Part shown: positions 1,693 through 4,600 of the stretch, piece after piece
Layout of the letters: each line of letters begins with the position of its first letter
How positions within the stretch are numbered: position 1 is the first letter of the stretch
From: a virus
Lineage: Duplodnaviria; Heunggongvirae; Uroviricota; Caudoviricetes
Length of the DNA stretch: 7,374 nt
Virus record (IMG/VR): IMGVR_UViG_2639762982_000006
Reading direction: 5' to 3' (one strand)
Position numbers: made by a program

Positions 1693-4600
1693 TTAACAGA
1701 TTCTACGAGTTGTCATTTGTGACAGTATGCTCGCAATCGTAGTGATTACTACCACCAACTGCTAGCTTTCTTCTCTCTAGCTTTTCCTTCGCTTTGCAGT
1801 AAATCTTTACTTCCTGTAGAAATATTTCTATTTGCATCAGCCTCAGACTGAATTACATCTGTCTTAGCTGCTCTCTCCTTCAACTCCTGCTCTATAAAAT
1901 CGTTTTCTCGCTGGACACGAGCCGCTTTTGCTTGCAGTTCGAGTTTCATGCTTTCGAGTTGCAGCTTGCGAAGCTCATCCTCATAAGCTTGATCTCGCTT
2001 CTTGTCATTTGCTAGCTCGGCTTCTCGTTTCGCTCTACGTTCATTTTCTGCAGCAACACGCTGTTTTTCGCGTGCAGCAGCGGCAGATGCTGCTTTTTCT
2101 CTTCTAATACGTTCAGCTTGTGCTTGTTGGCGAATAAGTTCTTTTCTGGCATCCTCAGCTTGCTGCTCTTTAGCTCGCCCTTCATTTTCCGCTTGAGCAA
2201 TAGCAGCAATTTGACTTTGCAACGAGTTAGCCAAGGCAGTGCCTACACTAAACGTAGAAAAGATTAGAAATAAAATAATTTTATTCATAAATTATTTCTT
2301 TTCTGGACAAGTAGCATTTGGCTGAATTCGAGTTTCATTATCTTTAGTTGAAATAAGCACAGCAAGCCCCGTTGTAAACTGGCATGCTTTACCAACTTGA
2401 GTTGAAGTGAACACCTTAGTTCCTTCTTTATAAGTCAGTGAAACACCTTCAACAATTGTTTTATCACTAACCAAAGAACCAGCCGCTGCACCAAGAGCCG
2501 CACCACCAGTACCGCCAGCTACAGCACCCAGTGTCGATGTGCCTTTAACATTATAACCGGCAACGCCCCCAGCAACAGCTCCCAGTACCGCACCAAATGT
2601 CTGTGCCGCTTCTTTATTAGCTTTATTATCAACTTTCACTTTAGCTGGAAGCACAGAGATAATATTGACTGTCTTTGTTTCCTGCTTCGAATTCAATTGA
2701 GCGGTATCATAAACATCGGCAGCATAATCAGCACCGCTAGATTGACACCCAGAAAGAAGAATTGCAGATACAACAAGAGCGCATAAAGTATACTTTTTAG
2801 ACATAAGAATCATCCCAGAAAAACAAAAACCGGCGAGAAGTTACCACGAGAACGGAAAGTAAACAAGAATACTCCCATTGACTTATATCAATTAATCAAC
2901 TTTTTATAAGCTATCCCTAACTTATTGTGTATAGCTGAAAAGTCAGAGACAAGTTCACCATCTGCATTATTTCTTAAGTTAATAGTTTATTGCTAACTTA
3001 ATTTATGTATCGACTATTGATATCCATCTTAAAGTTACAATATCCATCTGCATTATTTTTCATCACAAATAATATATCTATTGCACGACACTAATCTGCT
3101 CTAATAAATTTGTATTTTTAAGTCGCGAATGCTATCTTTTTGCATCATATTGACCTTTTAATCGTTCAGGCTTATAGTTTCGCCGTCGTAGCAAATTCTG
3201 CGACCGGGTTTAGCAGCCTGAATACTTACGCGGACAACCGCAGATTTCCGATATTGCGGTATTTTTGTGTCCGTAAACCACGTTACGCCCGAATTATGGT
3301 GGGGCGTGATGGGGAGGCTTCGGCCTGCTGGTTTCGTAAGTGCCAGTCTGCTAACCCCGTCACGTCCTGCCACCTGTTTAGCAGCGGGTCGCAGGTTGTT
3401 TATCAACTTACGAGGCCGTAACTATGGTTAATGCCAATCCTTGCGCACGCCAAGAATTCATCTGGCGTTTCTATTCCTGCAAAAAACACCACTATCACTT
3501 CGTCATCGCAGCAACAGAAGACGAAGCACGCTCTCAATTGCCTGATGGCCCCTGCATTTTTACTGCCCGTTTTTCAACTAACTCGCGCAATTCACTTAGT
3601 TACTGGAACCTCCCCTTCTCTGCCGACGTTCAGGGGGTTTTATGAAAAAACCTCTCGTCACCCGTAATGACATAGCCGAAGCGATCGCCCTGCATACTGC
3701 CTGTATGCCGACACGGGAGATCCCCGGCGCAATTGCCAACTATTTCATGATAACCAGACGTTTTTATACCCGAACAGATAAGGCTGTGATCAACAGGCTA
3801 CTGATAGCCGAGATCAGGGATTATTTGATTGAACAAGGACGTCTACGTTACGCAACGGTGGCAGCAGAAATGAGAAAGGAGGCACATAGAATGACCAGTA
3901 ATAATTTGAATGTTAAAAAACCAGCATCTGTTGCTTCAGCTACGCCATCACCAGCTGTGAATGTTATCTCCAACACTGGAGACACAATCGACAGCCAGAC
4001 GCTGTTAAAGATGGTCAATGAAGCGCGTAAGTTATGTGGGGAACCAGAGGTTCGGAACAACAAATTCATCAAAAAAATACTCGACGAATTAGAAGGTGAG
4101 GACGGTTACACAAAAAGTGCAACCGTGCCGCCAGGTGGCGGTACGCCTATGGTTGTCATAACCATGACCTACAAACAAGCCCTGCGAGTCGCCGCGCGCG
4201 AGTCAAAAGCAGTCCGCCGTTCGCTGATCGACAAACTGGAAGAATTGCAGCAGGCAAACTCCCCTGCCCCATCGATCCCCCAAACATTACCAGACGCTCT
4301 ACGCCTGGCTGCCGAGTTGGCAGAACAGAAAATGCAGTTGGAACAACAGCTGGTGGCCGCAGCCCCTAAAGTCGATTTTGCCGACCGGGTATCAGCGGCT
4401 AATGGAATCCTGATCGGGAACTTTGCAAAGGTCGTTGGACTTAAGCAAAACGCCCTTTTCTCATGGTTGCGCCAGAACGGCATTCTCATGGCTTTTGGTG
4501 CGCGCAAAAACGTACCGCGCCAACAGTACATCAACGCCGGGTATTTCACGGTGAAAGAAGTGGTGCTGGATGATGAAAATGGCTACCAGATACGGCTGAC

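What the first reader, a model, noticed from the sequence alone, without database searches (positions are those of the whole stretch)
3198..3415. Antisense RNA with two blocks complementary to duplicated targets; downstream target masks the icd SD
Blocks b' (CGTAAGT, 3335-3341) and a' (CTGCTAA, 3348-3354) are exact reverse complements of a1/b1 (TTAGCAG 3210-3216, ACTTACG 3224-3230) and a2/b2 (TTAGCAG 3378-3384, ACTTACG 3406-3412). Block order is inverted between RNA and targets, as antiparallel pairing requires. b2 extends to ACTTACGAGG, covering the SD 8 nt before the ATG at 3424. Two 7-mers each recurring twice with a matching complement inside 220 bp is unlikely by chance.
Basis: seen in the sequence. 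Interest (0 to 1): 0.85.

Follow-up and report, generated by a model that had tools for sequence, protein, structure and literature searches.

The report
Phage P1-type C4 antisense RNA switch

Summary
TTAGCAG lies at 3210 and 3378 with its complement at 3348-3354. ACTTACG lies at 3224 and 3406 with its complement at 3335-3341. Only 1 of 20,000 shuffles gave two such blocks.

It is the immI control region of a P1/P7-type phage-plasmid. Rfam finds C4 antisense RNA (RF01695, 3292-3377) and the a1/b1 target motif (RF03163, 3172-3224). The curated P1 record annotates the same six sites, the 77-nt RNA, icd and ant1/2. The window is 100% identical to E. coli plasmid pSvP1_F.

In the predicted fold, b' sits in a 9-nt hairpin loop and a' in a 7-nt single-stranded junction. 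The b'-b2 duplex (8 Watson-Crick pairs, 3406-3413) overlaps the icd Shine-Dalgarno GAGG (3412-3415).

Across relatives I found 3 a alleles and 9 b alleles in 15 combinations. All four targets always match the resident C4 exactly, while the scaffold helices are almost invariant.

The window's type (a as in P7, b as in phage D6) is the same as in Salmonella phage SJ46.

The only mildly new aspect is the combinatorial allele diversity, including the perfect co-variation of a1/b1, whose function is unresolved.

The parts
3095..3111 (+). C1 repressor operator (Op51/Oc4 equivalent), TCTGCTCTAATAAATTT
   Evidence: Aligns to the annotated P1 operator Oc4 (L001 1496-1512). It is identical to the P7 sequence (alignment A3).
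3109..3138 (+). Promoter P2c4 (P51a) equivalent: -35 at 3109-3115, -10 at 3133-3138
   Evidence: Positional homology to the P1 annotation through alignment A3. Not detected by the consensus scan.
3150..3178 (+). Promoter P1c4 (P51b) equivalent: TTGACC, 17 nt, TATAGT
   Evidence: Consensus scan gives 10 of 12 matches. The position matches the annotated P1 promoter P1c4.
3172..3224 (+). c4-a1b1 leader motif (two hairpins; a1 presented in the second hairpin loop)
   Evidence: Rfam RF03163, 55.3 bits against a gathering score of 46.7, E=3.4e-12. Local fold.
3210..3216 (+). a1 target block TTAGCAG
   Evidence: Always matches a' in relatives.
3224..3230 (+). b1 target block ACTTACG
   Evidence: Six of its 7 pairs with b' show double-sided compensatory change among relatives. 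Mostly single-stranded between two hairpins in the leader fold.
3298..3374 (+). Mature C4 RNA (77 nt) by homology to the P1 misc_RNA c4
   Evidence: Rfam RF01695 at 3292-3377, 70.8 bits against a gathering score of 45. The P1 annotation at L001 1699-1775 maps to 3298-3374. Fold energy -46.1 kcal/mol, z=-5.9 for 3297-3373; -45.7 kcal/mol for 3298-3374.
3334..3341 (+). b' recognition block (U)CGUAAGU in the 9-nt loop of the second hairpin
   Evidence: Unpaired probability is 0.98-1.0 for five bases and about 0.5 for C3335 and G3340.
3348..3354 (+). a' recognition block CUGCUAA in the 7-nt single-stranded junction
   Evidence: Unpaired probability 0.92-0.99.
3378..3384 (+). a2 target block TTAGCAG
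   Evidence: P1 annotation: 'target site a2 ... repression of icd ant translation'.
3406..3413 (+). b2 target block ACTTACG(A), overlapping the SD
   Evidence: 8-bp Watson-Crick duplex with b'; loop-restricted duplex energy -10.9 kcal/mol.
3412..3415 (+). Shine-Dalgarno GAGG of icd
   Evidence: Read directly from the sequence. Invariant in alignment A2.
3424..3645 (+). icd (73 aa, host cell-division inhibitor)
   Evidence: ORF. RefSeq product 'host cell division inhibitor Icd-like protein'. P1/P7 icd lies at the same position.
3642..4685 (+). ant1 (347 aa antirepressor). Its start ATG overlaps the icd stop (ATGA). The in-frame ant2 start is at 3891, preceded by AAGGAGG.
   Evidence: Pfam ANT/KilAC, 5.2e-31. 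P1 ant1/ant2 annotation. Sequence at 3870-3910.

Best explanation
The region is the immI control module of a P1/P7-like phage-plasmid. Transcription starts at C1-controlled promoters (about 3109-3178) and gives one RNA carrying, in order, the a1/b1 leader, C4, a2/b2, icd and ant1/2. The 77-nt C4 RNA (3298-3374) is cut out of this precursor; in P1 the 5' end is made by RNase P. C4 folds into a long closing stem with two hairpins. This exposes b' (3335-3341) in a hairpin loop and a' (3348-3354) in a single-stranded junction. C4 then pairs in trans, at two sites, with a2 (3378-3384) and b2 (3406-3413) on immI transcripts. The b'-b2 duplex overlaps the icd Shine-Dalgarno sequence and blocks icd translation. 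Because ant1 starts inside the icd stop (ATGA) and depends on icd translation, the antirepressor is not made and C1-mediated lysogeny is kept. The identity of the a and b blocks sets the immunity specificity. This copy has the P7-type a block and the D6/SJ46-type b block. I therefore predict that its C4 does not repress P1-type or P7-type immI transcripts, and that theirs do not repress this one. The upstream a1/b1 copy most likely acts as a second, competing binding site that titrates C4, in cis within the precursor or in trans, as Citron and Schuster originally proposed. Shown here: the sequence anatomy, the family membership, the accessibility of the blocks, and the exact co-variation of RNA and targets. 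Inferred from P1/P7 experiments: processing, translational repression, icd-ant coupling and the immunity phenotype. The role of a1/b1 is conjecture.
For: Rfam C4 scores 70.8 bits and c4-a1b1 55.3 bits, both above their gathering scores. The region is 93-99% identical to P1, P7, SJ46, RCS47 and others. The curated P1 record annotates Oc4, P1c4/P2c4, a1, b1, c4, a2, b2, icd and ant1/2 in the same order and spacing, and P7 likewise. The window is 100% identical to pSvP1_F, where RefSeq annotates Icd-like and Ant proteins. The fold places b' in a loop and a' in a junction, at -46.1 kcal/mol and z=-5.9. On 16 distinct sequences, the b'-b2, a'-a2, b'-b1 and a'-a1 pairings hold in 100% of cells. Six b pairs and two a pairs show double-sided compensatory changes, against 31-53% pairing when the partner columns are slid. 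In 76 distinct loci there are 3 a and 9 b alleles in 15 combinations, and every locus with full flanks has all four targets exact. Loop-restricted duplex energies are -10.9 to -11.5 kcal/mol for the cognate b and -0.7 to -6.8 for non-cognate b. The published mechanism is summarised.
Against: There are no experimental data for this allele. In the isolated target fold, four bases of b2 lie in a local hairpin stem, and two b' bases have only about 0.5 unpaired probability, so pairing needs some strand invasion. Unconstrained full-length duplex energies do not discriminate cognate from non-cognate targets; only the loop-restricted calculation does. All compensatory changes are Watson-Crick to Watson-Crick, so co-variation alone cannot formally distinguish RNA pairing from a DNA word recognised in both orientations. 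Whether a mismatch in b alone (a is shared with P7) suffices for heteroimmunity is untested.
Confidence: 0.93

Rival explanations
1. The repeated 7-mers are chance recurrences in a 220-bp stretch and have no function.
For: Whole-window counts of each word are only modestly above the shuffle expectation: 5 of 200 and 1 of 200 shuffles reach 4 copies. Single blocks of this kind occur at several other places in the window.
Against: Only 1 of 20,000 shuffles gives two blocks in the required arrangement. All six blocks change together in every one of 15 allele combinations among relatives. Rfam matches are above gathering.
Confidence: 0.005
2. The a and b words are DNA sites for a sequence-specific protein (iteron- or operator-like), present in both orientations, rather than RNA pairing partners.
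For: Co-variation of direct and inverted copies would also arise for a DNA motif. No G-U intermediates are seen in the a and b helices.
Against: The inverted copies fall exactly in the two unpaired segments of a conserved structured RNA whose helices are essentially invariant. The a and b alleles reassort freely in 15 combinations without any protein at the locus that would have to track them; for example, Icd is identical across different types. The literature established c4 as an RNA repressor (Citron & Schuster 1990, cited).
Confidence: 0.01
3. The region encodes a small C4 protein. Historically c4 was annotated as a CDS, and there is a 93-aa TTG ORF at 3140-3421.
For: The ORF is listed. 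The old GenBank record X15639 labels c4 as a CDS.
Against: Variation among relatives is confined to the complementary blocks and is compensatory between sites 110-130 nt (a1/b1) and 30-65 nt (a2/b2) away from a' and b', which a coding constraint does not predict. The covariance-model match and the strong fold point to an RNA. The curated P1 and P7 records annotate a misc_RNA.
Confidence: 0.005
4. Same system, different role for a1/b1. Rather than competing as a decoy, a1/b1 pairs in cis with a'/b' inside the nascent precursor. This would either hold C4 inactive until it is processed or guide its folding and processing, so that a1/b1 mainly controls C4 maturation or autoregulation.
For: a1/b1 is co-transcribed about 110-130 nt upstream of a'/b' and matches them exactly in every locus examined. 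a1 is presented in a conserved hairpin loop, which is kissing-loop geometry. The P1 annotation still calls a1/b1 'putative'.
Against: Nothing here discriminates cis from trans binding. The only published proposal I could read is competition with a2/b2.
Confidence: 0.3

Closest known systems
C4 antisense RNA / immI operon of bacteriophage P7 (AF503408)
   Same: Same operon layout: C1 operator, promoters, a1/b1, c4, a2/b2, icd, ant1/2, kilA. 95.5% identity over 3100-3700. Identical a blocks (TTAGCAG / CUGCUAA). Same upstream neighbours at the same offsets, upf50.0 and upf50.5.
   Different: The b blocks differ at 4 of 7 positions (window ACTTACG, P7 GATTGTG), with matching changes in b', b1 and b2. 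The flank 5' of b2 also differs (TATCA against AAACCT).
C4 antisense RNA / immI operon of bacteriophage P1 (NC_005856)
   Same: Same architecture, with every element annotated. 93.7% identity. The C4 scaffold is identical apart from one G-C to G-U change in the closing stem.
   Different: Both a (P1 TTGACAG) and b (P1 GTTAGTG) differ. P1 has simABC upstream where the window has the P7-type genes.
Salmonella phage SJ46 (KU760857) and Escherichia phage D6 (MF356679)
   Same: SJ46 carries exactly the window's a and b type and is 98.8% identical over 601 nt. D6 carries the same b allele ACTTACG in b', b1 and b2.
   Different: D6 combines that b allele with the P1-type a (TTGACAG) and a different antirepressor gene, annotated as Roi-like. 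In neither record does the feature table of the stretch I fetched list c4 or its targets.
P22 sar RNA / ant and other phage antirepressor-controlling small RNAs
   Same: A small RNA blocks translation initiation of an antirepressor to stabilise lysogeny (review PMC12197685).
   Different: By my recollection, sar is a true opposite-strand antisense with continuous complementarity. C4 is encoded on the same strand, excised from its own target transcript, and uses two short discontinuous recognition blocks. They are not homologous; no Rfam match other than C4 was found at this region.

Membership tests
C4 antisense RNA (Rfam RF01695) | Covariance-model score at or above the curated gathering score | tested here: met
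   70.8 bits against 45, E=1e-12, full model 1-87, + strand, 3292-3377.
C4 antisense RNA (Rfam RF01695) | Fold: long closing stem enclosing two hairpins, with b' in the loop of the second hairpin and a' in the single-stranded segment after it | tested here: met
   The MFE and centroid structures are identical, at -46.1 kcal/mol and z=-5.9. b' lies in a 9-nt loop and a' in a 7-nt junction, with unpaired probabilities given. This agrees with the Rfam consensus structure line.
P1/P7 immI antisense control system | a' and b' complementary to a2/b2 downstream on the same strand, with b2 overlapping the icd ribosome-binding site | tested here: met
   7-bp a'-a2 and 8-bp b'-b2 duplexes. b2 at 3406-3413 overlaps GAGG at 3412-3415, 8 nt before the ATG at 3424.
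P1/P7 immI antisense control system | Second target pair a1/b1 in the leader upstream of c4 (Rfam RF03163, c4-a1b1) | tested here: met
   55.3 bits against 46.7 at 3172-3224. Exact a1 and b1 at 3210 and 3224.
P1/P7 immI antisense control system | Operon context: C1 operator and sigma-70 promoters upstream; icd then overlapping ant1/ant2 downstream | tested here: met
   Operator and promoters align to the P1 annotation. icd is at 3424-3645. ant1 is at 3642-4685 with an ATGA overlap. ant2 has an in-frame ATG at 3891.
P1/P7 immI antisense control system | RNA and targets co-vary between heteroimmune relatives (the P1 versus P7 paradigm) | tested here: met
   100% of cells paired, with 8 pairs showing double-sided changes for each of the downstream and upstream target sets. 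15 allele combinations, all self-consistent.
P1/P7 immI antisense control system | 77-nt RNA processed from a longer precursor, with the 5' end made by RNase P | not testable with these tools
   Only indirect: the sequence around both ends is identical to P1 and P7. Hartmann et al. 1995 is cited, but the paper itself is not held.
P1/P7 immI antisense control system | C4 represses icd/ant expression and confers type-specific superinfection immunity | not testable with these tools
   Needs reporter and infection experiments. Energetic prediction only.

The most novel reading that the evidence does not exclude
On an almost invariant C4 scaffold, P1-like phage-plasmids carry a freely reassorting set of recognition alleles: at least 3 a and 9 b alleles in 15 observed combinations. 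Each is matched exactly at all four target sites. This would be a natural two-key RNA 'immunity barcode' under diversifying selection. The window's combination (P7-type a with D6-type b) would then be its own immunity group, heteroimmune to both P1 and P7. The never-broken co-variation of a1/b1 would show that this functionally unassigned upstream site is under the same selection as the RBS-proximal site. Single elements carrying two or three C4 loci, of the same specificity (pSvP1) or of different specificities (one IMG/VR contig), would be running parallel antirepressor circuits.
Probability: 0.45. Interest if true: 0.4.

Novelty: already known. Interest (0 to 1): 0.15.

Why it matters
As a finding it mainly validates the first-stage reader, which recovered a real two-site RNA-RNA control system from sequence alone. 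Biologically it is the classic secondary immunity switch of P1-type phage-plasmids. These elements are now common carriers of resistance and virulence genes in E. coli and Salmonella: 575 PLSDB plasmids match this 300-bp region, 109 of them at 99% identity or more. The a and b type of C4 probably decides which P1-like elements can superinfect or coexist in one cell. Typing these 14 nucleotides could therefore give a cheap predictor of immunity groups among phage-plasmids. The allele series also offers ready-made orthogonal RNA repressor and target pairs.

Tried and rejected
(1) Unconstrained RNAduplex of full-length C4 against the downstream target regions gave -33 to -42 kcal/mol for every pairing, cognate or not. 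It unfolds C4, so I rejected it as uninformative. Only the calculation restricted to the loop and junction segments discriminates.

(2) The terminator-like hairpin at 3616-3637, just before the ant1 start, was a candidate RBS-masking element for icd-ant coupling. The fold of 3600-3660 is not better than shuffles (z=-0.56), so I make no claim.

(3) Pfam gives no family for Icd or for the RepL-like ORF. Their identities rest on the RefSeq, P1 and P7 annotation.

(4) The genome-contig scan with the scaffold pattern returned only 4 loci, because the collection holds one genome per species.

(5) Attempts to read Gilcrease & Casjens 2018, Lobocka et al. 2004, Hartmann et al. 1995 and Riedel et al. 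1993 failed because they are not held. Full-text searches found no open paper describing C4 allele diversity. That is absence of evidence only.

(6) Chance, a DNA-protein site and a protein-coding c4 were considered and rejected (see the rival explanations).
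Full report
**1. The observation**

- TTAGCAG occurs on the + strand at 3210-3216 and 3378-3384, and as its reverse complement CTGCTAA at 3348-3354.
- ACTTACG occurs at 3224-3230 and 3406-3412, and as CGTAAGT at 3335-3341.
- The order a1-b1 ... b'-a' ... a2-b2 is the one antiparallel pairing requires.
- GAGG at 3412-3415 lies 8 nt before the ATG at 3424.

Whole-window counts of each word are only modestly unusual, but the arrangement is not. Among 20,000 dinucleotide-preserving shuffles of 3198-3415, one produced two different 7-mers each with two direct copies flanking a reverse-complement copy. 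In the real window that configuration occurs only here.

**2. What it is**

A scan of the whole window against Rfam gives three matches above the curated thresholds:
- C4 antisense RNA (RF01695) at 3292-3377 on the + strand: 70.8 bits against 45.
- 'a1, b1 targets of C4 antisense RNA' (RF03163) at 3172-3224: 55.3 bits against 46.7.
- An unrelated sok RNA at 6833-7007.

The stretch 3100-3700 is 93-99% identical to P1, P7, SJ46, RCS47 and other punaviruses.

The curated P1 genome annotates, in the same order and spacing, the C1 operator Oc4, promoters P2c4 and P1c4, 'putative a1/b1 target sites for C4 RNA', the 77-nt misc_RNA c4, and 'target sites a2/b2 ... repression of icd ant translation'. 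It then annotates icd and ant1/ant2. P7 is annotated likewise.

Transferring the P1 coordinates through the alignments gives these positions:
- Operator at 3095-3111.
- P1c4 at 3150-3178 (TTGACC, 17 nt, TATAGT), also found by the consensus scan.
- Mature C4 at 3298-3374.
- icd at 3424-3645.
- ant1 at 3642-4685, with its ATG overlapping the icd stop.
- ant2 from the in-frame ATG at 3891.

The whole 7,374-bp window is 100% identical to E. coli plasmid pSvP1_F (NZ_MN510446.1, positions 58282-65655). There RefSeq calls the two genes 'host cell division inhibitor Icd-like protein' and 'phage antirepressor Ant'. Its length of 139,066 bp matches the P1-like element pSvP1 described in PMC6906374.

**3. 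Structure and accessibility**

The 77-nt RNA folds into a long closing stem that encloses a UUCG-capped hairpin and a second hairpin. The energy is -46.1 kcal/mol (z=-5.9 against shuffles), and the MFE and centroid structures are identical.
- b' (CGUAAGU) occupies the 9-nt loop of the second hairpin.
- a' (CUGCUAA) is the 7-nt unpaired segment between that hairpin and the closing stem.
- Unpaired probabilities are 0.92-0.99 for a'. For b' they are 0.98-1.0 at five positions and about 0.5 at two positions.

Using only loop and junction nucleotides, the b'-b2 duplex has 8 Watson-Crick pairs (3334-3341 with 3406-3413). It could extend by G-U pairs across the whole GAGG.

On the target side:
- a1 sits in a conserved hairpin loop.
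- b1 lies between two hairpins.
- In this allele, four bases of b2 lie in a modest local hairpin.

**4. Comparative test**

I collected immI loci through the Icd protein and through a scaffold pattern that leaves the recognition positions free.

In an alignment of 40 loci (16 distinct sequences), all cells of the b'-b2 (8 pairs), a'-a2 (7), b'-b1 (7) and a'-a1 (7) helices are standard pairs.
- Six b positions and two a positions show changes on both sides.
- When the partner columns are slid by 1-3 positions, pairing falls to 31-53% and compensatory changes disappear.
- The internal helices of C4 are essentially invariant, with a single one-sided G-C to G-U change.

In the wider set of 76 distinct sequences:
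- There are three a alleles: TTAGCAG, TTGACAG, TTTGCAG.
- There are nine b alleles: GATTGTG, GTTAGTG, ACTTACG, ACGAATG, GTACATG, GTTCAAG, ACTTGTG, GACAAAG, ACCAAAG.
- They occur in fifteen combinations.
- Every locus with complete flanks carries a1, b1, a2 and b2 that exactly match its own C4.

Loop-restricted duplex energies are -10.9 to -11.5 kcal/mol for the cognate b, against -0.7 to -6.8 for non-cognate b. For a they are about -8.5 cognate, against -3.6 to -6.7 non-cognate.

This is strong evidence that the pairing is real and specificity-determining. It extends the classical P1/P7 contrast. It also shows that a1/b1, still labelled 'putative' in the P1 record, is under the same constraint as a2/b2.

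**5. The type carried here**

Relative to P1 (a TTGACAG, b GTTAGTG) and P7 (a TTAGCAG, b GATTGTG), the window has the P7 a allele. Its b allele, ACTTACG, differs from P7 at 4 and from P1 at 5 of 7 positions, with matched changes in b', b1 and b2.
- The same b allele is found in phage D6, there combined with the P1-type a.
- The exact window combination is found in Salmonella phage SJ46.
- It is common: 20 of 82 loci in the first census, and 109 PLSDB plasmids at 99% identity or more over 3140-3440.

P1 and P7 differ at only two positions in each block and are heteroimmune at immI (literature). I therefore predict that this type is a separate immunity group. Whether a mismatch in b alone is enough is untested.

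**6. Mechanism**

The following steps are shown here by sequence and comparison:
- A co-transcribed RNA with two exposed recognition blocks.
- Two matching target pairs on the same strand.
- The downstream pair overlapping the icd SD.
- icd and ant1 overlapping by ATGA.

The following steps are taken from work on P1 and P7, as summarised in PMC8198154, PMC12197685 and the supplement of PMC2864571, with the RNase P citation:
- C4 is excised from the precursor.
- It binds a2/b2 and blocks translation at the ribosome-binding site.
- Full repression of the antirepressor Ant needs C4 in addition to C1.
- The a' and b' blocks underlie P1/P7 heteroimmunity.

From my own recollection, not verified here: repression of icd translation also causes premature transcription termination ahead of ant (Biere, Citron & Schuster 1992).

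For a1/b1, the only published proposal I could read is competition with a2/b2 for C4. A cis role in the precursor is equally compatible with my data.

**7. Comparison, novelty and score**

Every family-defining feature that can be tested in silico is met (see the membership table). Processing and phenotype cannot be tested here. The system is already known, the window is a published plasmid sequence, and the exact allele type occurs in a published phage genome.

- The RNA ends are 3298-3374.
- The RNA is same-strand and trans-pairing rather than opposite-strand antisense.
- The SD overlap is 2 Watson-Crick bases plus wobble.

The finding is correct but ordinary, hence the low interest score.

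The one aspect that may not be catalogued is the combinatorial allele diversity with invariant scaffold and perfectly tracking a1/b1. I could not confirm its novelty because the most relevant paper (phage D6 genome, 2018) is not held. Open-text searches were negative.

Noticed in passing
window 6833-7157: A hok/sok toxin-antitoxin module lies downstream of the RepL-like ORF (5679-6524). It comprises sok RNA (RF01794, 114.9 bits, 6833-7007) and a Hok/Gef-family ORF (7002-7157, Pfam 1.3e-21).
   Followed up: partly
L084 1928-3597 (NZ_MN510446.1 about 3927-5596): The same plasmid carries a second immI-like locus. Its C4 match (L084 2128-2213) reads identically to the window's, and its a1/b1/a2/b2 blocks are identical. 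Its Icd variant and antirepressor (372 aa) differ. Upstream is a palindromic, apparently bivalent C1-operator-like site (ATTGCTCTAATAAATTTGATTTATTAGAGCAAAT). One C4 specificity would control both antirepressor operons.
   Followed up: partly
L008, L043/L142, L103 (IMGVR_UViG_2703718869_000013, 97 kb): One viral contig carries three C4 loci with three different specificities: a TTGACAG with b GTTAGTG, a TTGACAG with b ACTTGTG, and a TTAGCAG with b GTACATG. Two other contigs carry two different types each (L100/L166, L145/L153). This suggests parallel orthogonal antirepressor circuits in one element, or assembly chimeras.
   Followed up: partly
window 1749-2813 (- strand): The genes upstream of immI are a DUF5384 protein (1749-2288) and a 173-aa ORF (2292-2813) with a weak, sub-threshold TraT match. 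They sit at exactly the offsets of P7 upf50.0 and upf50.5. The locus therefore has the P7-type neighbours instead of the P1 simABC superimmunity genes.
   Followed up: partly
window 1-185 and 7351-7374: The window is bracketed by the ends of an IS91-family transposase gene and an IS421 (IS4-like) transposase gene. In pSvP1 the immI-kilA-repL-hok block is therefore an IS-flanked segment, consistent with the rearrangements reported for this plasmid (PMC6906374).
   Followed up: no
window 3392-3412: A small hairpin abuts b2. Its 5' arm (C)AGGUUG is constant in all relatives, while its 3' arm changes together with the b allele (AACCUG in P1/P7, CAACUU here). The hairpin is thus preserved, but in this allele it sequesters the first four bases of b2. 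This may tune C4 binding kinetics.
   Followed up: partly
L087 (Aeromonas rivuli NZ_CDBJ01000058.1) and L086 (2.9-kb contig labelled Bacillota MAG): The exact enterobacterial C4 scaffold occurs in an Aeromonas contig. There it carries a third a allele (TTTGCAG) and a unique b allele (GACAAAG), all four targets match, and the downstream 65-aa ORF looks unlike Icd. A short contig binned as Bacillota carries the window-type C4 plus an Icd that differs from the window's at two residues, which is probably contamination or misbinning.
   Followed up: no
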